From assembly GCA_018716065.1 (NCBI GenBank), contig DVKJ01000037.1, positions 1-54,239 on the forward strand: 54,239 nucleotides of DNA. The letters run 5' to 3'. Every line of letters starts with the position of its first letter. Position 1 is the stretch's first letter. The position numbers and the translations under genes were made by a program. Under the pieces are notes generated by a model, which ran no database searches, had not been told where the DNA came from, and was given only the letters and a program-made list of their open reading frames with translations. Positions 253-54,239 of this stretch are shown here, piece by piece. Source of the stretch: Candidatus Pelethosoma merdigallinarum (GTDB taxonomy: Bacteria; Bacillota_I; Bacilli_A; RF39; UBA660).

Positions 253-300
253 ACAAAAAAAAGAAGAAAATATCAATACCAGATACCCCCCCCCATGTAT
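253..300 (-). promoter_or_regulatory. G9-tract / -35 promoter motif, copy 1; -10 position occupied by the element end
   Basis: Minus strand reads CAT-G9-TATCTGGTA-TTGATA, matching the motif at 37899-37923. Confidence 0.45.
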
Positions 301-34886: not shown

Positions 34887-37826
34887 TTATTCAACCACAT
34901 ATGGATCTTGCATCGTTCCTGTTCCTGTGAATGTAATCTTTGATGGATCGATATTTATAACTGGACGAACACCGAAAGCATAATCCACGTTGTTGCTCGT
35001 AAGCACGCCCGGCGACGACACGTAGAACTCGCTCGCACGAAACCAGTAGCTGAATCCGGACGGTGACATGGTCCAATAGTTAGTTCCACTATATAAATAA
35101 TAAAGTCGATTCTGGGCATTTGTCCTTCCACCAGCTATGTTCACTTCATCTGCAGTGATTAATCCAATTGGGTTGGTTAACTTCCCATTACCACTGGTAC
35201 TTGATACACTGAATTGATCATTGTTCCGTGAACAAATCAAGTTTGGTCCTTTTCTGGTTCCTTGCCAGTCCCAGAATTTGTCATAATCATAAATTGTTGA
35301 ATGGATTCCGTATCCTTCTTGTGTGTATGGATAAGCTACTTTTGTTGATGGAACACGATTATTACAGTAAATTGCCTCTTTTGAAATCTTATTATCATAA
35401 CTTTTTAAATTGTTGTTATACCAATTTTCTAGATATGTCTTCATGGTACTATTAGCATCATTTTTATGGGCACTTTCATAACTCGTAGATGAATATTCAA
35501 TTCCTTTCACTCGTAGTGTTGTATCATTCACTCCACTCGTTACATGTAACAATCGTTGACAAGTTGCGGTCTCATTACTACTGATACAGGTATAATAATT
35601 ATTTGTATTATACTTTTCTCGATATTCTTTTGGCGTTGCTTGTACTAAATCTCCACTTAATTTAAAACTTCTAGTTGATGAATCATATGTATAAGTGGTT
35701 CCGAAATAGTATTTTGTTGTTGGCGACAATCCATTATAATCGAAAGATTGAATTGATTCTGTTATTTGATTATTAGAAGTATCTCCATACATATACCCAA
35801 CATATGCATTATCTGCCCAATAACTATTAAACGCACTCGTTCCTACTTGACGATCACTACTTGATTCTCCATTCTCATGTGGTGTCTTTCCATCATAAAT
35901 CATACGAATACTTCCATCACCATTAATTCGAATAATTCGCCAATAGTAATCTCCAAACTTGACATAGTTTCCTCCCACTGCTCCTCTGTAATAGAAGGTA
36001 TCTCCGGCATTGTCCGTACTTGCATACATTCCCGTTCCACTATTGTCATATCCTTTAATTCCTGCGGTATAATTATATACAGTAGCCGTATAAGTTGTTC
36101 CCCCATTACTATTGGTACTCGTTGTTACTTTTGTTATTCTTCGCATCACTGTACAAGATGAATTTGTACTCGTACAAGTGTAATAGTTTCCATTTGAGTA
36201 ATCGATACTACTTGGATCTTGTAAACTTGAACCTGTTAAAGTATAGTATCCTGTTGATGAATCGAATGTATATCCCGTTCCTATTTGCCAATAAGTTGTA
36301 GTTGAAACAGTACTTGTATTCGTACTGGCTACTTCTTCATAAGTAATTGCAGGCGCACTTACTTTAAAGTCTGGTGTTCCTTTATCCTTAATTGTTTGTT
36401 TTGCTTCTTCTATGTTTGTATTTTTAGTTTCTGAAGCAAGTAAACAGTCTGCTAGATCGGTGACTCCATTCTTTTCACACCAACTCTTATGTTTGATCGT
36501 TGTTGATTTGGTGTTGATTTCTGATTTGTTTCCTGCCTTGTCCTCTACATATACACTCATTAAGTAATCTTTTTCTTCTAAGCTAGTAAAAGTATAGTTA
36601 GAGTTATTACTTTCTACAAAACTTTGTCCTCCATCTTTACTGTAAAAATATTTATTAACTCCACTTTCATTATCTACTCCAGTTACTTCAAGAGTAACCG
36701 TGTCATCATTTGGTGTAACATTGAAATTATAAATCGTTGGAATCGTAGAGTCTACTTTATACAAGTCTGAACACTTTGTAGTCTCATTATTAGAAGTATC
36801 AATAGCTTTTACACATAGTCTAGTTGGTAATGAGTTACTACTTAGATTCACACTATAAACATTCTCTTGACCTTCTAGTGGAGTTGTAGGTTCACAACTT
36901 GTTTCTGTTGTCTCACAATATTTGACTTCTTTTATTCCTACATTATCTGTAATGGTACTATCTAAGGTAAGACCCTTATACCACCCATTGTTTCCCATTA
37001 CATTATTACCTAATGTAATAGTTACTTTAGGATCAGTTTCATCCGTTGTACTGACTTTTCCGGATGAAAATACAACATTACCTAAAGAATCTTCTGCTTT
37101 TACGTAGATGGTATATTCTTTATGAGTATCTAGTTGATAAATGGTATATTCATTACTTGTTGTTTCATACCATTTATTATTATCTAAAGAATAATAATAT
37201 TTTATCGCATTCGTTGCGGTTATAATAGTCTTTATTGAATTTTCACTTGGTTCAAAAGTTAAATTAGTGATAGAAAGTTCATCTACATTTCCTTCTTCTG
37301 TAGCTTCACTAAAATTAGAACTATTTCCACTTTGTAAATAATTTAAGTTCATACTGAAATCAAAACTTTGATTACTTGGTATATCTGGTATATTCTCACT
37401 CAGTTTCATGATAAGTTGAAAGGTAATATCTTGATCTACAATGAGTTCTTCTCGTGCGGTAATTCCTTCTATCTTAAAATCAATATATTCTTGTTCTTCC
37501 ATACTCATCTTTATAGAGTCTAATACGGCATCGATATTACCTAGATTGGATACAGTAATATCATACGAAATACTATCGCCTGGCTTTTCAAATGACGCAC
37601 TCATATTAGCTGTTAGTTTGTCAAAACTTGGATCTGTAACATTCTTAGCATTACCTACTATTTTCTTTGTTTCTACATTGGTAATTTCAATTCTCCAATC
37701 AGTAGTAATCCCACCAGTTCCTTGAATATTTAAAGTTTGACTTAATACCGCATAGCCTACAGTTAGTCCAATCACAATCGCACATAGTGTTCCTATAATG
37801 ATTCTCTGTTTCTTTCTCGTTCTCAC
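34887..37826 (-). CDS. Large surface protein, putative DGR target adhesin
   Basis: GTG start after an AGAGGTGG RBS (the ORF-track ATG overlaps the -10 box). It has an N-terminal hydrophobic segment, a PGD..Y.I.V.N.G..DA domain, Ig/FN3-like repeats (YYYSLD, YFYSKD), WRIIRINGDGSIRMIY, and a C-terminal IGLITADE..YWTMSP...GVRPVI...GTGT..DPY domain of probable C-type-lectin-like fold. Confidence 0.85.
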   Translation of the reverse strand: MRTRKKQRIIIGTLCAIVIGLTVGYAVLSQTLNIQGTGGITTDWRIEITNVETKKIVGNAKNVTDPSFDKLTANMSASFEKPGDSISYDITVSNLGNIDAVLDSIKMSMEEQEYIDFKIEGITAREELIVDQDITFQLIMKLSENIPDIPSNQSFDFSMNLNYLQSGNSSNFSEATEEGNVDELSITNLTFEPSENSIKTIITATNAIKYYYSLDNNKWYETTSNEYTIYQLDTHKEYTIYVKAEDSLGNVVFSSGKVSTTDETDPKVTITLGNNVMGNNGWYKGLTLDSTITDNVGIKEVKYCETTETSCEPTTPLEGQENVYSVNLSSNSLPTRLCVKAIDTSNNETTKCSDLYKVDSTIPTIYNFNVTPNDDTVTLEVTGVDNESGVNKYFYSKDGGQSFVESNNSNYTFTSLEEKDYLMSVYVEDKAGNKSEINTKSTTIKHKSWCEKNGVTDLADCLLASETKNTNIEEAKQTIKDKGTPDFKVSAPAITYEEVASTNTSTVSTTTYWQIGTGYTFDSSTGYYTLTGSSLQDPSSIDYSNGNYYTCTSTNSSCTVMRRITKVTTSTNSNGGTTYTATVYNYTAGIKGYDNSGTGMYASTDNAGDTFYYRGAVGGNYVKFGDYYWRIIRINGDGSIRMIYDGKTPHENGESSSDRQVGTSAFNSYWADNAYVGYMYGDTSNNQITESIQSFDYNGLSPTTKYYFGTTYTYDSSTRSFKLSGDLVQATPKEYREKYNTNNYYTCISSNETATCQRLLHVTSGVNDTTLRVKGIEYSSTSYESAHKNDANSTMKTYLENWYNNNLKSYDNKISKEAIYCNNRVPSTKVAYPYTQEGYGIHSTIYDYDKFWDWQGTRKGPNLICSRNNDQFSVSSTSGNGKLTNPIGLITADEVNIAGGRTNAQNRLYYLYSGTNYWTMSPSGFSYWFRASEFYVSSPGVLTSNNVDYAFGVRPVINIDPSKITFTGTGTMQDPYVVE
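34956..35078 (-). other. Putative DGR variable region VR1
   Basis: 62 of 110 nt are G/C at 34961-35070 by manual count. Only 1 of 33 consecutive codons ends in A, and residual AAC AAC codons are present. Confidence 0.7.
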
Positions 37827-37872
37827 AAAACCACCTCTACTTCTATTATGGTTTATTCTATTATCTTTATTC

Positions 37873-37927
37873 ATTATACAAAAAGAGAGGGTTTATTGTC
37901 AATACCAATAACCCCCCCCCGTGGACG
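37873..37927 (-). promoter_or_regulatory. sigmaA promoter preceded by a G9 tract, copy 2
   Basis: Minus strand CAC-G9-TTATTGGTA-TTGACA-N18-TATAAT. Confidence 0.7.
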
Positions 37928-44100: not shown

Positions 44101-46362
44101 TTATGCATTAATTCCCTTTATTTTCTTTTCTTCTGGTTCATTATCTTCTTCATACCATTTTTTCTTTCTTGGTTTTCCAATTTTTTTCTTTTCGATATCA
44201 AACCATAATTGACTGGCAATACAAATCGAAGAATAAACTCCAGATACTAATCCAAATAATAAGGCAATATTAAAGTTTAAGATTTCATGACTACCTAAAA
44301 GAATCAATGAAACAACTGGAATTAATGTTGTTAAAGTTGTTACGATACTACGATCTAAGGTTTGTCTTAAACTAGTATTGACAACATTTTGAAGTTGTTC
44401 TTTCTTTTTAATTCCATTTGGATATAAAACTTTTTTATTTTCACGAATACGATCAAAAGTAACAATCGTATCGTTAATAGAATATCCAATGATAGAAAGA
44501 ACAGCGGCAATGAAAATACTGGTTACTTCTAAATGAAGAATACTGAATAGTGCGACAATGAAGAATGTGTCATGTAGTAAGGCTACAATCGCACTGATCG
44601 CATAACTAAAGCGGAAACGGAAAGATAAATATAGAACAATTCCAATACTAGCTAAAACAAGAGAAATAATCGCATTTTTAATTAATTCTTGTTTTACCAT
44701 ATTAGAAATTACACCAATATCTGTTTGCGCTTGATACTTATTTGTAAAATAATCTTCCGTTTCTATAACTTGTTCTTTTGTTAAAGAATCTTCAATTTTT
44801 GCTTGAATGCTTTGATCATTTAACGTATCTACACTTGCGATTTCATATCCTAATTCTTCTAAATCTTTCGTAACTGTTTTTTCCGTCATTTGATTTCCTG
44901 CACTCAGAGTAATCGAAGTTCCCCCTTTAAAATCGATTCCTAATTGTAATCCTTGAGTAGCTAGAGAAACAACTCCAACCACAAGAAGAATCACACTGGC
45001 AATATAATACCATTTACGAGTTTTAATAAAATCAAGTTTTTCATAACGTGTTTTTTCACCACGAGCAAGTTGTTTTTTGTTACATCCGATAAATAAATTA
45101 TATTTATCATCAAAATATCCAGTATCGACAAATTTTTGTAGTAACCAACGAACAAATACAACCATAATTAACATTGTTGTAATAATACTAATAATTAACA
45201 TCGTTGCAAATCCACGTACACTACTCTCTCCAAAGATAAAGAGAATAACCGCCGTAATTAATGTCGTAAAGTTAGAATCAAAAATAGACATGAAAGAGTT
45301 TTTATTTCCTTCTTTATAAGCCATTTTTAATTTCGTTCCTTTACACAATTCATCACGAATACGGGAAAAGTTAATCACATTCGCATCGACAGCCATTCCA
45401 ATACCAATGACTACTGCCGCAATTCCTGGTAATGTAAGGACACCCCCAAATAGCCAGAATATTAAGAAGGTAAAGAAGGTATAAATAACCATTCCAACAC
45501 TTGCGATTAATCCACTAAAGCGATATAACGCAATTAATAGAACCATAATAAGAACAATTCCAACGACTCCAGCAACAAATGTTTTTTCAAGTGAATTTGC
45601 CCCAAAAGAAGCGGCAACTGTTTTCGATGAAACTTCTGTTAACTGTGTTGGTAAACTTCCTGAATTTAGTGAATTTACTAACTCTTCTGCTTCTTTCTCA
45701 GTAAAGTTTCCTTGAATAATGACATCATCGGCAAATCCTTGAGAAACAGTCGCAGCAGATAAACAACGACTAGATTCTAAGTTTCCACAAGATGCACTTT
45801 CACTACTAAAAGAATCTACGCCTTCTTCAAAGTCTAACCAAATAACAATGCGATTATCACTACTTTCACTAATACGCTTTGTTACTTTATAAAACTTATC
45901 TTTGTCGGCAACACTTAAGGCAACCGCAGGTTTCCCGCTAGCATCTTGGCTTACTTTTGCCCCACCACTACGTAGTACCGTACTATCCATAAGTAATTCA
46001 TCATCGGTATCACGGAAGGTCAAACTAGCTACACGGCCAAGGGTATTACGAGCCGTTTCAGGATCCGTTACTCCGGCAAGACCAACACGAATTTTATCGT
46101 CTCCTTCAACCGTAATTTCTGGTTCTGATACACCTAACCCATCAATACGTTTTTGAATTACTTTATATGTTCCGTTTACTTCTTCTGTGGTTGCTTTACT
46201 TCCATCAATTCCTTTTACTTGATAAAGAACTTCAAATCCCCCTTGTAAATCAAGTCCAAAATTTAAATTAGAAAATAATGGTTCAAATAAAAATCCAAAG
46301 ATTGCGACCATAATCGCACATAAAAACAATCTTTGAATGACTTTATTACGTTTCTTTTTCAT
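44101..46362 (-). CDS. secDF: Protein translocase subunit SecDF (fused)
   Basis: LNFGLDLQGG, GMAVDAN, GIDFKGG, GYSINDTIVTFDRIRE. Confidence 0.97.
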   Translation of the reverse strand: MKKKRNKVIQRLFLCAIMVAIFGFLFEPLFSNLNFGLDLQGGFEVLYQVKGIDGSKATTEEVNGTYKVIQKRIDGLGVSEPEITVEGDDKIRVGLAGVTDPETARNTLGRVASLTFRDTDDELLMDSTVLRSGGAKVSQDASGKPAVALSVADKDKFYKVTKRISESSDNRIVIWLDFEEGVDSFSSESASCGNLESSRCLSAATVSQGFADDVIIQGNFTEKEAEELVNSLNSGSLPTQLTEVSSKTVAASFGANSLEKTFVAGVVGIVLIMVLLIALYRFSGLIASVGMVIYTFFTFLIFWLFGGVLTLPGIAAVVIGIGMAVDANVINFSRIRDELCKGTKLKMAYKEGNKNSFMSIFDSNFTTLITAVILFIFGESSVRGFATMLIISIITTMLIMVVFVRWLLQKFVDTGYFDDKYNLFIGCNKKQLARGEKTRYEKLDFIKTRKWYYIASVILLVVGVVSLATQGLQLGIDFKGGTSITLSAGNQMTEKTVTKDLEELGYEIASVDTLNDQSIQAKIEDSLTKEQVIETEDYFTNKYQAQTDIGVISNMVKQELIKNAIISLVLASIGIVLYLSFRFRFSYAISAIVALLHDTFFIVALFSILHLEVTSIFIAAVLSIIGYSINDTIVTFDRIRENKKVLYPNGIKKKEQLQNVVNTSLRQTLDRSIVTTLTTLIPVVSLILLGSHEILNFNIALLFGLVSGVYSSICIASQLWFDIEKKKIGKPRKKKWYEEDNEPEEKKIKGINA

Positions 46363-52323: not shown

Positions 52324-53757
52324 CTATTTTTCCTTTTTGTATACTTTATTAGTCGTAATATTCATTACTTCATCCGCATAAACAAAATGATAATTTCCCA
52401 TTTGTAACTGTTCTTTCACATCATCATTCATGATATCCAACAAGTGATACGGTACATAAGCTTTTATTTTTAAATCTGTATCTTCTTCTGAAGAAAGTGA
52501 AGAAAAACGCTTATAAATATCTGATTCTTTCATCTGATATTCTTCCGCTAAAGTTTGAAACAATTGTTTCGTTATTTTTTCTAAATATATCAAATAATCA
52601 GAACTATGAATATCTATGTTATCTTGATAAGTAACATAATAAGATTGATAAAAAGACTCTAACTGACCCAAATACCACTTATAAAAGAATAAAATATCAT
52701 CTAATGGAATATCTTTATTTTTAACATAGTTTAATAGATGAATCGTATAATTTTTTAATAAACTAGAACTAAAATCCCCATACATTTCTCTTCGGATATT
52801 CGCACGATCTGTCGCATCGATATTTTTACCATGAAGCTTTTTATAATATCGGTTTAAATCATCATTTTGTTTAAAAGATAAAAATTCCATCGTATTCATG
52901 ACATCGTATAACTCTTTCGATTCTCCTTCAAACAAATGAATCATCTTTTTCAAATCGTTGTGTAAAATGGCATCTTGAATTGCGATGGTTCCCTTTGAAT
53001 TCGAAAATAAATACGAATTAATAAATAAGCGATATAAATCTTCTTCTAAAGGATAACTACTAAATTCACTTTCATAATTAGTAGATGCAAAAGCTTCTTG
53101 AATGACATAATTACCAAATCCTGGCTGACATTCCAAAGAATGACATGGGCATGGATTTTGTTCCATATGTGATAATTCATGAAGAAAAGAATTTTGAGCA
53201 AGTGTTTGAAAATACATTTCTTCTCCCATAATTTGTGAACGAATCACAGAATCGTAAACCGTAATCATATTATAAGCTGTATTATAAGACATTAAGGCAT
53301 CCGAATCTTCTTTCGTTTCGACGATTGCTAAAGAAGATAAAGAATGAGAAAAAGCTTCTAATTCTTCATGATCACAACGTTCTTTCATATCCGTAATCAC
53401 TTCTTTTAAAGAATATTCAAAAGCATCTAAATATTCTTCACCCAATTCTTTATATTCAGGAAGAGCCTTTAAAAAAGGCTTAGAATTTTCCAAAATCATA
53501 TCAGTAATATTCGATACATCCTGATCTAAAACAGAAGTATGATTCTCAGAACAACTATAATCAACACCTTTATAATCTTTCCAGTCTGAATACGATTGAC
53601 TTAATTCATAAATTCCTTCGTATTCATATTCTATTTTAACGTTATTAATTGCTTTTTCAAATGCGGATTGATCTTCAATCGTCGCACTCATGGTTGTCAT
53701 CGTTCCGCCTGTTAATAATATTAAGAGAGAAGCTTTCGCTTTCTTCGTTAGTTTCAT
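52324..53757 (-). CDS. Putative exported protein with HExxH zincin-like motif
   Basis: Basic/hydrophobic N-terminus, FLHELSHMEQ, then IQEAFA. Confidence 0.75.
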   Translation of the reverse strand: MKLTKKAKASLLILLTGGTMTTMSATIEDQSAFEKAINNVKIEYEYEGIYELSQSYSDWKDYKGVDYSCSENHTSVLDQDVSNITDMILENSKPFLKALPEYKELGEEYLDAFEYSLKEVITDMKERCDHEELEAFSHSLSSLAIVETKEDSDALMSYNTAYNMITVYDSVIRSQIMGEEMYFQTLAQNSFLHELSHMEQNPCPCHSLECQPGFGNYVIQEAFASTNYESEFSSYPLEEDLYRLFINSYLFSNSKGTIAIQDAILHNDLKKMIHLFEGESKELYDVMNTMEFLSFKQNDDLNRYYKKLHGKNIDATDRANIRREMYGDFSSSLLKNYTIHLLNYVKNKDIPLDDILFFYKWYLGQLESFYQSYYVTYQDNIDIHSSDYLIYLEKITKQLFQTLAEEYQMKESDIYKRFSSLSSEEDTDLKIKAYVPYHLLDIMNDDVKEQLQMGNYHFVYADEVMNITTNKVYKKEK

Positions 53758-53850
53758 AGTTTTCACCCCAGTAGACCTATTGTATCACTTTTTATGGTTT
53801 TGTCAATTTCTTTTCTCACAAAAAAGACACTTCATTTTGTGCCTTTTTGA

Positions 53851-54239
53851 TTATATTTCATATGGATTATCATAACTCCCATTTCCATCAAGAATTTGAA
53901 CATCAGGACCAATCATAATCACTGGGCGCACACCGTTCGCATCCGACACGCCATAATTAATCACAAAGCCATCGATGCTCACGAGCCACGCATTCGATGC
54001 ACTATATGGCGTAGTTGTCCAAAAATATTGTGAATTTAACAAATAACTTGAACTGCCACTTGCCAGATTATATTCATCCAATGATAATAAACCAATAGGT
54101 TTCTGTATACTTGATAAATTACTAGTACAGGTTGTTCTTGATGAAGATGAAGAAGTTGTTGTTTCACTACACCATGTTTGATTTACAAGTAAATCTTTAT
54201 GTTCTAACTTTGGATAAAAATAATTATTTAACCAATCAT
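53851..54239 (-). CDS. 3' end of a surface protein, second putative DGR target (5' part outside window)
   Basis: The frame is open to the window edge: DWLNNYFY...PIGLLSLDEY...YFWTTTP..AWLV..G.V....V....GVRPVI...GNGSYDNPY. This is the same C-terminal domain as in the 34887 gene. Confidence 0.85.
   Translation of the reverse strand, partial: DWLNNYFYPKLEHKDLLVNQTWCSETTTSSSSSRTTCTSNLSSIQKPIGLLSLDEYNLASGSSSYLLNSQYFWTTTPYSASNAWLVSIDGFVINYGVSDANGVRPVIMIGPDVQILDGNGSYDNPYEI
53915..54025 (-). other. Putative DGR variable region VR2
   Basis: 53 of 100 nt are G/C at 53921-54020 by manual count. None of 24 consecutive codons ends in A, and the region reads as an adenine-mutated AAY-rich template. Confidence 0.72.

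What the first reader, a model, noticed from the sequence alone, without database searches (positions are those of the whole stretch)
53915..54025. Second DGR-style variable region, readable as a mutated AAY template
Seen: TCG AAT GCG TGG CTC GTG AGC ATC GAT GGC TTT GTG ATT AAT TAT GGC GTG TCG GAT GCG AAC GGT GTG CGC CCA. Restoring adenines at variable codons gives ...AAT GCG TGG AAC GTG AAC AAC AAT GGC AAT GTG AAT AAT AAT AAC GTG..., the N-A-W-N-V-N-N-N-G-N-V-N-N-N-N-V pattern typical of DGR templates. That predicted template can serve directly as a search query.
Basis: partly seen in the sequence, partly recalled or inferred. Interest (0 to 1): 0.8.

Follow-up and report, generated by a model that had tools for sequence, protein, structure and literature searches.

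The report
Orphan, frozen DGR-type variable region
The flagged stretch is the hypervariable tip of a lectin-like surface protein of the kind rewritten by diversity-generating retroelements, but this chicken-gut bacterium's assembly holds no template and only a broken reverse transcriptase, and the allele looks frozen.

Summary
The quoted sequence is real. It lies on the minus strand at 53923-53997, inside the 3' end of a gene (53851-54239, -) that runs off the contig. The gene encodes a DUF6273 domain that models as a C-type-lectin-like fold. A 79-nt GC-rich island (53922-54000; 56% GC, genome 31%) has the DGR variable-region signature. A same-genus genome carries a full cassette of target, TR, MutS-like gene, Avd and RT. 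This genome's assembly has no TR and no Avd, and its only RT is a 134-aa remnant. The allele is identical in contigs of four chicken-gut metagenomes from four studies and in six database proteins, while flanking positions differ. The gene's 5' part, on contig C29, carries a frameshift. Verdict: a DGR-derived variable region, orphaned and static here. It is a new member of a known kind, of modest interest.

The parts
53851..54239 (-). 3' part (128 codons plus stop) of a surface-protein gene with a DUF6273 domain. The gene runs off the contig end; its 5' part lies on contig C29.
   Evidence: ORF list. Pfam PF19789 E 4.9e-5, 23.7 bits against a cut-off of 23.5. 82-nt overlap with the ends of C29 and C64. 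Database protein P0357 equals the C29 tail plus the window's 128 aa.
53922..54000 (-). 79-nt variable-region-like stretch, co-linear with DGR template repeats of related genomes. GC-rich island whose hypervariable codons are of NNY type.
   Evidence: The G002 TR aligns to 53922-54002. Codon alignment. GC 0.557. GC island 53922-54002. Entropy profile.
53922..53934 (-). GC-rich 13-mer at the 3' end of the stretch, identical to the 3' end of the TR in same-genus genome G002. After it, TR and target sequences diverge, so it sits where an IMH-like boundary would be.
   Evidence: The same element, with 0-3 mismatches, ends the other modules of the genome. Its role as an initiation-of-homing site is inferred, not tested.
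53779..53806 (-). Promoter-like site of the next gene downstream (52324..53766, -). It marks the end of the finding's gene unit.
   Evidence: TTGACA-16-TACAAT, 11 of 12 matches. No terminator-like site was found in 53700-54239 by the same scan.

Best explanation
The stretch is the ligand-binding variable region of a membrane-anchored surface protein. It lies at the C-terminal end of a DUF6273 domain with a C-type-lectin-like fold. Its sequence was written in the past by a diversity-generating retroelement (DGR). In that process an RNA template repeat rich in AAY codons is copied by an adenine-error-prone reverse transcriptase, and the cDNA replaces the region up to a GC-rich 3' boundary.

In this lineage the region is now orphaned and static. 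The assembly holds no template repeat, no Avd, and only a truncated RT. The allele does not differ between independent samples, and the gene itself carries a 5' frameshift. It is one of about 20 such modules in the genome, and these now differ as a fixed paralog repertoire.

Shown: the anatomy, the fold, the family-level hypervariability, complete DGR cassettes in relatives, the lack of machinery in this assembly, and the allele's invariance. Inferred: that a DGR wrote this particular allele, and that the machinery is truly lost rather than unassembled.
For: 1. Class.
- DUF6273 match.
- AF2 model of the full-length homolog P0088, whose last 128 aa are identical to the window. Mean pLDDT is 83.9, and about 96-99 for residues 190-393.
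- Structure search: Z 17.0 to the DUF6273 domain of 9qa6_A, Z 7.7 to the Legionella Lcl C-terminal domain, Z 6.5 to Treponema TvpA (2y3c_A), and many C-type lectins at Z about 6.

2. DGR signature.
- Among six modules of this genome, 20 of 22 columns that are A in the congener's TR vary, against 24 of 57 non-A columns (Fisher p 9e-5).
- Paralog pairs differ at codon positions 1/2/3 by 8/6/1 (C19) and 9/9/2 (C7).
- Entropy is 2.15 bits in the region and 0.68 bits in its flank.

3. Machinery in kin.
- 23 of 61 genomes searched match the RT remnant, including 20 of 36 other genomes of the same family.
- G002:C77 holds a target gene, a TR, a MutS_I-like gene, a bAvd-like gene and a 333-aa RT.
- TRs also lie beside RTs in G010, G022 and G005.

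4. No machinery here.
- One PF00078 match, a 134-aa C-terminal remnant with stops upstream. It aligns to residues 186-292 of a 328-aa RT, 8ub7_A.
- No Avd or accessory gene, and no TR.
- No full-length RT more than 66% identical to the remnant among 87 longer homologs.

5. Static allele.
- Contigs of runs X2, X3 and X5 span the region with differences only at 53353, 53512, 53641 and 53643. X8 covers it with 0 differences.
- P0088, P0089, P0090, P0091, P0356 and P0357 share the region. P0088 and P0089 differ at 11 residues outside it.
- After the four 100% hits, the next homolog is at most 79% identical, so no same-backbone allele with another variable region was found.

6. Frameshift in the 5' part on C29, also seen in P0090 and P0357.
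Against: - The genome is a 91%-complete bin of 66 contigs, none shorter than 2.6 kb. Public contigs that carry related RTs are often only 1-3 kb. A cassette broken by its repeats could therefore have been dropped.
- The runs were ranked by shared 31-mers, which favours samples with the same allele. Only 4 of 19 holders were laid. Logan contigs hide minor variants.
- In run X8 the contig carrying the window's allele has depth 2.3, against 7.57 for the flank contig that stops at 53916. Another allele may therefore co-occur there.
- No cognate TR was found anywhere. Against the G002 TR the window mismatches 9 of 22 A positions and 14 of 57 non-A positions (p 0.17). The DGR origin of this allele therefore rests on class-level evidence.
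- The GC-rich 3' boundary is intact, so the region could still be a substrate.
Confidence: 0.65

Rival explanations
1. An active DGR serves this region from a cassette that is missing from the bin (an unassembled or unbinned short contig). The genome would then have many remote targets, and this allele merely looks stable in the few samples examined.
For: The bin is 91% complete and has no contig under 2.6 kb. Related RTs sit on very short public contigs. Three of four same-genus genomes have full-length RT frames. The GC-rich 3' boundary is intact and identical to a congener's TR end. In run X8 depth drops at the region.
Against: The allele is identical in four runs of four studies and in six database proteins, while flanks differ. 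The modules of C7, C19 and the window imply at least three different templates, because their third codon positions differ. Even in G002, which has a cassette, no module differs from the TR at adenines only; the best has 9 A and 6 non-A mismatches. An exact 19-mer scan of metagenome contigs found no TR.
Confidence: 0.22
2. No DGR was ever involved. The pattern comes from ordinary divergence and gene conversion among paralogous lectin-like domains, under diversifying selection on the binding loops.
For: The modules are mosaic. The window's gene has a domain-1 body and a domain-2 tail. A paralog's region in run X8 shares its 3' half with C7 domain 2 but not its 5' half. Non-adenine differences from every available TR are common.
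Against: Selection does not explain a 56% GC island in a 31% GC genome that coincides with the TR-homologous segment. It also does not explain differences confined to codon positions 1 and 2 with a fixed third base. Nor does it explain the AAY-rich non-coding TRs beside Avd-RT genes in relatives, next to orthologous targets.
Confidence: 0.06
3. The single-domain gene with this region is an assembly chimera made at the repeat. The allele would then not exist as such.
For: The contig ends inside the gene. Two other contigs end in the same 82 nt. P0088 and P0091 have different N-terminal halves and sit on 1.4-1.5-kb contigs.
Against: Other assemblies carry the same joined gene on contigs of 14-45 kb. 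An 815-nt contig of run X2 spans 53442-54239 with one difference.
Confidence: 0.04

Closest known systems
DGR variable proteins with a DUF6273 domain in gut Firmicutes phages (Faecalibacterium prophages; 'tentaclins')
   Same: The Pfam domain is the same, with the variable region mapping to its C-terminus and a C-type-lectin-like fold (passages read in PMC11792537 and PMC10743442; here).
   Different: Those targets lie in phage DGR cassettes with a cognate TR and RT. This one is chromosomal and sits in a family of about 20 modules, with no TR or intact RT in the assembly and a static allele.
Treponema denticola TvpA and its DGR with several remote targets
   Same: The fold is related (2y3c_A, Z 6.5, 122 residues aligned, rmsd 4.5). 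It is a cellular DGR with many dispersed targets: the passage read in PMC5758913 gives seven non-adjacent targets as the most found.
   Different: TvpA is an FGE-type lectin-fold protein with an HRDC-containing cassette (same paper). The relatives here use a MutS-like plus Avd cassette. This genome lacks the cassette.
MSL-type DGR cassettes ('Architecture D' of Wu et al. 2018, which includes the Legionella DGR)
   Same: The congener's cassette has a small MutS domain I-like gene next to Avd and RT. The paper's passage says MSL genes always accompany avd.
   Different: This was seen only in relatives (G002, G010). Nothing of it is found in this genome except an RT tail.
N-terminal DUF6273 domain of the Thomasclavelia ramosa IgA peptidase (PDB 9qa6)
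   Same: It is the best structural match (Z 17.0, rmsd 2.5, 183 residues, model residues 183-393). The domain is named DUF6273 in PMC12402451 (passage read).
   Different: There the domain belongs to a multidomain M64 peptidase and is not reported as DGR-diversified in the passage read. Sequence identity is 19%.

Membership tests
DGR variable region (part of a working DGR) | A cognate template repeat in the same genome or element that differs from the region only at template adenines | tested here: not met
   No TR-like sequence was found in the 1.32-Mb assembly by BLAST of the region, an anchor scan, an AAY-density scan, or BLAST with a congener's TR. The congener's TR mismatches at 14 of 57 non-A positions. 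Caveat: the bin is 91% complete.
DGR variable region (part of a working DGR) | An intact DGR-type reverse transcriptase | tested here: not met
   There is one PF00078 match in the genome. It is a 134-aa C-terminal piece with stops upstream, aligned to residues 186-292 of a 328-aa RT and to residues 207-314 of the G002 RT.
DGR variable region (part of a working DGR) | An accessory protein (Avd, or MSL with Avd) | tested here: not met
   PF22296 gives 0 matches at E <= 1. tblastn with the G002 Avd and MutS-like proteins finds nothing credible.
DGR variable region (part of a working DGR) | The region lies at the C-terminus of a C-type-lectin-fold (or Ig-like) ligand-binding domain | tested here: met
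   DUF6273 match ending at the region. High-confidence model. Matches to a DUF6273 domain (Z 17), Lcl (Z 7.7), TvpA (Z 6.5) and many C-type lectins (Z about 6).
DGR variable region (part of a working DGR) | Variation confined to codons derived from AAY (first two positions vary, third fixed) | tested here: met
   This holds at family and paralog level. 20 of 22 TR-A columns vary against 24 of 57 others. Differences by codon position are 8/6/1 and 9/9/2 in paralog pairs. See also the entropy profile. For the window against its nearest paralog the pattern is less clean, at 7/8/5.
DGR variable region (part of a working DGR) | A GC-rich 3' boundary shared between TR and region (initiation of mutagenic homing) | tested here: inconclusive
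   The 13 nt at 53922-53934 equal the 3' end of the G002 TR, and TR and target diverge after them. Function was not tested, and this genome has no TR of its own to compare.
DGR variable region (part of a working DGR) | Hypervariability of the region within and between populations | tested here: not met
   There are no differences in the region in contigs of 4 runs from 4 studies, while 1-5 flank differences occur. Six database proteins share the allele. Limits: contigs rather than reads, 4 of 19 holders laid, and runs ranked by shared words.
Pfam DUF6273 (PF19789) | A match to the family model above the curated cut-off | tested here: met
   The window fragment scores 23.7 bits against 23.5. 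The full-length homolog P0088 scores 28.0 bits. The genome has 21 matches at E <= 0.01.

The most novel reading that the evidence does not exclude
This lineage of small-genome gut Bacilli may run, or may recently have run, a chromosomal MutS-like/Avd/RT DGR that rewrites a dozen or more dispersed DUF6273 surface-protein genes. That would exceed the seven non-adjacent targets reported as the maximum. The genome's GC-rich modules would record successive homing events, with GC decaying toward the 31% background after each module is orphaned. The window's one-domain gene could itself be the product of a homing event whose cDNA 5' end recombined with the upstream of two tandem variable regions, deleting the sequence between them. 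Expression of the repertoire would then be governed by the conserved G9 promoter cassette.
Probability: 0.15. Interest if true: 0.55.

Novelty: new member of a known kind. Interest (0 to 1): 0.3.

Why it matters
DGR targets with DUF6273 domains are already described, so the region itself adds a new host and context rather than a new mechanism.

Three points are useful:
- A first-pass reader could correctly predict a DGR template from a variable region alone.
- A 1.3-Mb uncultured chicken-gut bacterium devotes about 20 modules to this lectin-like family.
- Here the variable regions outlive the retroelement. Surveys that require an adjacent RT would miss such orphan targets. Conversely, a DGR-like codon pattern alone cannot be read as ongoing hypermutation.

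Tried and rejected
- **Template in this genome.** I ran BLAST of the region at word size 7, an anchor scan allowing 3 mismatches, an in-frame AAY-density scan (29 windows, none TR-like), and BLAST with the G002 TR. Only paralogous modules came back.
- **Template in public metagenome contigs.** An exact 19-mer of the window gave 10 loci. Nine are chance matches in 56-71% GC DNA and one is a module of another low-GC organism. None is a TR. Exact matching would miss a TR with one changed base.
- **Intact version of the RT remnant.** None is above 66% identity among 87 longer homologs.
- **First structure model.** With 38 close homologs it was too poor to search (pLDDT 60.5). A 69-sequence alignment fixed this.
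- **Profile search of PDB sequences.** The family alignment gave only one weak, unrelated hit. Foldseek gave one clear hit, 9qa6.
- **Earlier scan notes.** None exist for this genome or protein.
- **Literature.** A search for DGRs together with 'RF39' found no paper. Supplementary tables of the DGR surveys were not seen and may list relatives of these cassettes.
- **Terminator.** No terminator-like site was found after the gene.
- **Assembly chimera.** Rejected, because other assemblies and a run contig carry the same join.
- **G002 TR as cognate template.** Rejected because of the non-adenine mismatches.

Full report
**What is there**

The window is the whole of contig C20 of a 1.32-Mb, 66-contig genome bin with about 31% GC (91% complete, 2% contamination). 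They lie in frame in a minus-strand ORF (53851..54237, 128 codons) that is open at the contig end.

The fragment matches Pfam DUF6273 (E 4.9e-5, 23.7 bits against a cut-off of 23.5). The last 82 nt of the contig are repeated at the ends of contigs C29 and C64, and both ends carry the 5' part of such a gene. A database protein from another assembly (P0357, on a 45-kb contig) equals the C29 reading frame followed by the window's 128 residues. The gene is therefore C29:10693 onward joined to C20 down to 53851.

In C29 the N-terminal signal-anchor (MRTRKKQRIIIG...) is in a different frame from the rest of the gene. One base is missing after about codon 38 relative to the C64 paralog. The same shifted reading is seen in P0090 and P0357. 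In this lineage the gene is therefore probably a pseudogene, or is made without its anchor.

The closest named records to a housekeeping gene of the window are uncultured Bacilli, Mycoplasmatota or Tenericutes bins. 19 of the 23 runs listed hold the stretch, and most of those with a recorded source are chicken-gut metagenomes.

**Is it a DGR-type variable region?**

Five independent lines of evidence say yes, by class.

1. Composition. The 79 nt at 53922-54000 have 55.7% GC. Only 29 islands of that size and GC exist in the genome. One is exactly this stretch, and at least 12 are C-terminal DUF6273 modules.

2. Position of variability.
- In 38 homologs the mean column entropy is 2.15 bits over residues 345-368 and 0.68 bits over residues 200-344.
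   - Within the genome, the two modules of the C19 gene differ at codon positions 1/2/3 by 8/6/1, and those of the C7 gene by 9/9/2.
   - Across six modules, 20 of 22 columns that are A in a congener's template vary, against 24 of 57 other columns (p 9e-5).

3. Fold.
   - A model of the full-length homolog P0088, built with 69 diverse homologs, has pLDDT of about 96-99 over residues 190-393.
   - It matches the DUF6273 domain of 9qa6_A at Z 17.0 (rmsd 2.5, 183 residues), the Legionella Lcl C-terminal domain at Z 7.7, and the Treponema DGR protein TvpA at Z 6.5.
   - It also matches a long series of C-type lectin domains at Z about 6. The middling Z values alone would be weak; their consistency and the top hit carry the point.

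4. Literature. The passages read state that DUF6273 domains are DGR targets, that the variable region lies at the domain's C-terminus, and that the fold is C-type-lectin-like (PMC11792537 and PMC10743442).

5. Relatives.
   - 23 of 61 genomes searched have a match to this genome's RT remnant, including 20 of 36 other genomes of the same family.
   - Same-genus genome G002 (contig C77) holds a 611-aa orthologous two-domain target, a non-coding template repeat, a MutS-domain-I-like gene of 133 aa, a bAvd-like gene of 119 aa and a 333-aa RT.
   - The template ends in the same 13-nt GC-rich word as the window's stretch, after which template and targets diverge.
   - Templates also sit next to RTs in G010, G022 and G005. 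The MutS-like accessory class is described by Wu et al. (passage read in PMC5758913).

**Is a DGR working on it here?**

The evidence says no, or at least not detectably.

- The genome has a single RT match. It is a 134-aa C-terminal piece on C54:12206-12610, with stop codons just upstream and an opposite-strand ORF where the N-terminal two thirds should be. It aligns to residues 186-292 of a 328-aa RT in the PDB (8ub7_A) and is 67% identical to the G002 RT over residues 207-314.
- No intact relative above 66% identity turned up among 87 longer homologs.
- There is no Avd and no MutS-like gene.
- There is no template. BLAST of the region, an anchor scan, an AAY-codon density scan and BLAST with the G002 template returned only paralogous modules.
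- The G002 template is not cognate. It mismatches the window at 9 of 22 A positions and 14 of 57 non-A positions (p 0.17).
- The modules of C7, C19 and the window imply different templates, because their third codon positions differ.
- Even in G002 no module differs from the template at adenines only.
- An exact 19-mer scan of metagenome contigs gave no template.

**Allele variation**

Logan contigs of four chicken-gut runs from four studies were laid on 53300-54239.

| Run | Span covered | Differences from the window |
|---|---|---|
| X3 | 53300-54084 | four letters: 53353, 53512, 53641, 53643 (all in the neighbour gene) |
| X5 | 53300-54084 | the same four letters |
| X2 | 53442-54239 | one difference |
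| X8 | 53921-54084 (164-nt contig) | none |

No difference lies in 53915-54025.

Six database proteins from other assemblies carry the same region. P0088 and P0089 differ at 11 residues elsewhere, and P0356 has one substitution in the 128-aa part, outside the region.

After the four 100% hits, the next homolog is at most 79% identical. No allele with the same backbone and another variable region was found among the 120 listed of 235 hits. Likewise, the two-domain alleles P0093 and P0094 differ at five residues, none of them in their variable regions.

Limits of this evidence:
- The runs were ranked by shared 31-mers.
- Only 4 of 19 holders were laid.
- Contigs hide minor variants.
- In X8 the window's allele has depth 2.3, against 7.57 for the flank contig that ends at 53916. 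A second allele may therefore be present there.

**Context in the genome**

DUF6273 gives 21 matches in the genome. A motif scan finds 20 C-terminal modules, and 13 of them have at least 50% GC in their last 26 codons, against 27-40% in the 300 nt upstream. The GC values run from 0.64 down to 0.33. I read this, as inference only, as different ages since templating.

The window's gene is a mosaic:
- Its first 254 nt are 96% identical to domain 1 of the C7 gene.
- Its tail (VIMIGPDVQILDGNGSYDNPYEI) is that of domain 2 of two-domain alleles such as P0093.

It looks like a deletion between two tandem variable regions. Whether recombination or a homing event caused the deletion cannot be told.

**Verdict**

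I put 0.65 on 'DGR-derived, now orphaned and static', 0.22 on 'active DGR on a missing contig', and small odds on non-DGR divergence or assembly chimera. The finding is a new member of a known kind, of modest interest (0.3).

Noticed in passing
window 286-294 (-) and 37912-37920 (-); also G000 C29:10623-10631 and 14 other sites: The genome has 17 G/C homopolymers of 8 or more bases, where about 0.6 per strand are expected. All are exactly G9. All sit in one conserved cassette (CAT-G9-TATNTG, then TTGAYA, a spacer of about 15-17 nt, then a TAYAAT-like box), which in the 16 copies with a visible start codon precedes genes that start MRTRKKQR... or MKLKRK.... At least 9 precede genes with DUF6273 matches, and others face contig ends. 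Same-genus G001 has three such sites (two of G9 or longer, one of G7); G002-G005 have none. This may be a phase-variable or regulator-bound promoter of the surface-protein family.
   Followed up: partly
window 34887-37874 (-), variable-region-like island 34958-35087: This is the other DGR-style region of the window, in a 995-aa protein behind a G9 promoter. It belongs to a different module subfamily (...EFYVSSPGVLTSNNVDYAFGVRPVINIDPS) with paralogs on C2 and C41. GC is 0.58-0.61.
   Followed up: partly
G000 C54:12206-12610 (L001:1444-1848, +): A 134-aa C-terminal remnant of a DGR-type reverse transcriptase lies between an opposite-strand 166-aa ORF and a 394-aa ORF that starts 25 nt downstream (not identified). 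No template or Avd is beside it.
   Followed up: yes
L003:112-146 (G002:C77, just upstream of the MutS-like gene): The DGR operon of the congener is preceded by TTGACA, a 23-nt spacer made largely of a GT dinucleotide repeat, and TATAAT. Repeat slippage could switch the cassette on and off. The spacer as assembled is too long for a standard sigma-70 promoter.
   Followed up: no
G000 C29:10693-10830: The 5' part of the finding's gene has a one-base frameshift after about codon 38, which separates the signal-anchor from the body. Database proteins from other assemblies show the same shifted reading.
   Followed up: yes
G000 C28, about 44540-44620 (+): A module of the YWTDSA...GVRPVVRILK subfamily has TAG where its paralogs have the conserved TGG (W) codon. 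It is a likely pseudogene near a contig end.
   Followed up: no
alignment A2 (69 diverse homologs of P0088): The consensus N-terminus of the wider family is FTLxE, and several homologs match the prepilin N-methylation motif PF07963. In other lineages these lectin-like proteins are therefore pilin-like. The window's own lineage has a plain signal-anchor instead.
   Followed up: no
window 53916-53921, run X8: In one metagenome the contig from the neighbour gene (depth 7.57) stops at the 3' edge of the variable region, and the window's allele continues at depth 2.3. This suggests a co-occurring strain with another allele or the two-domain form at this locus.
   Followed up: no
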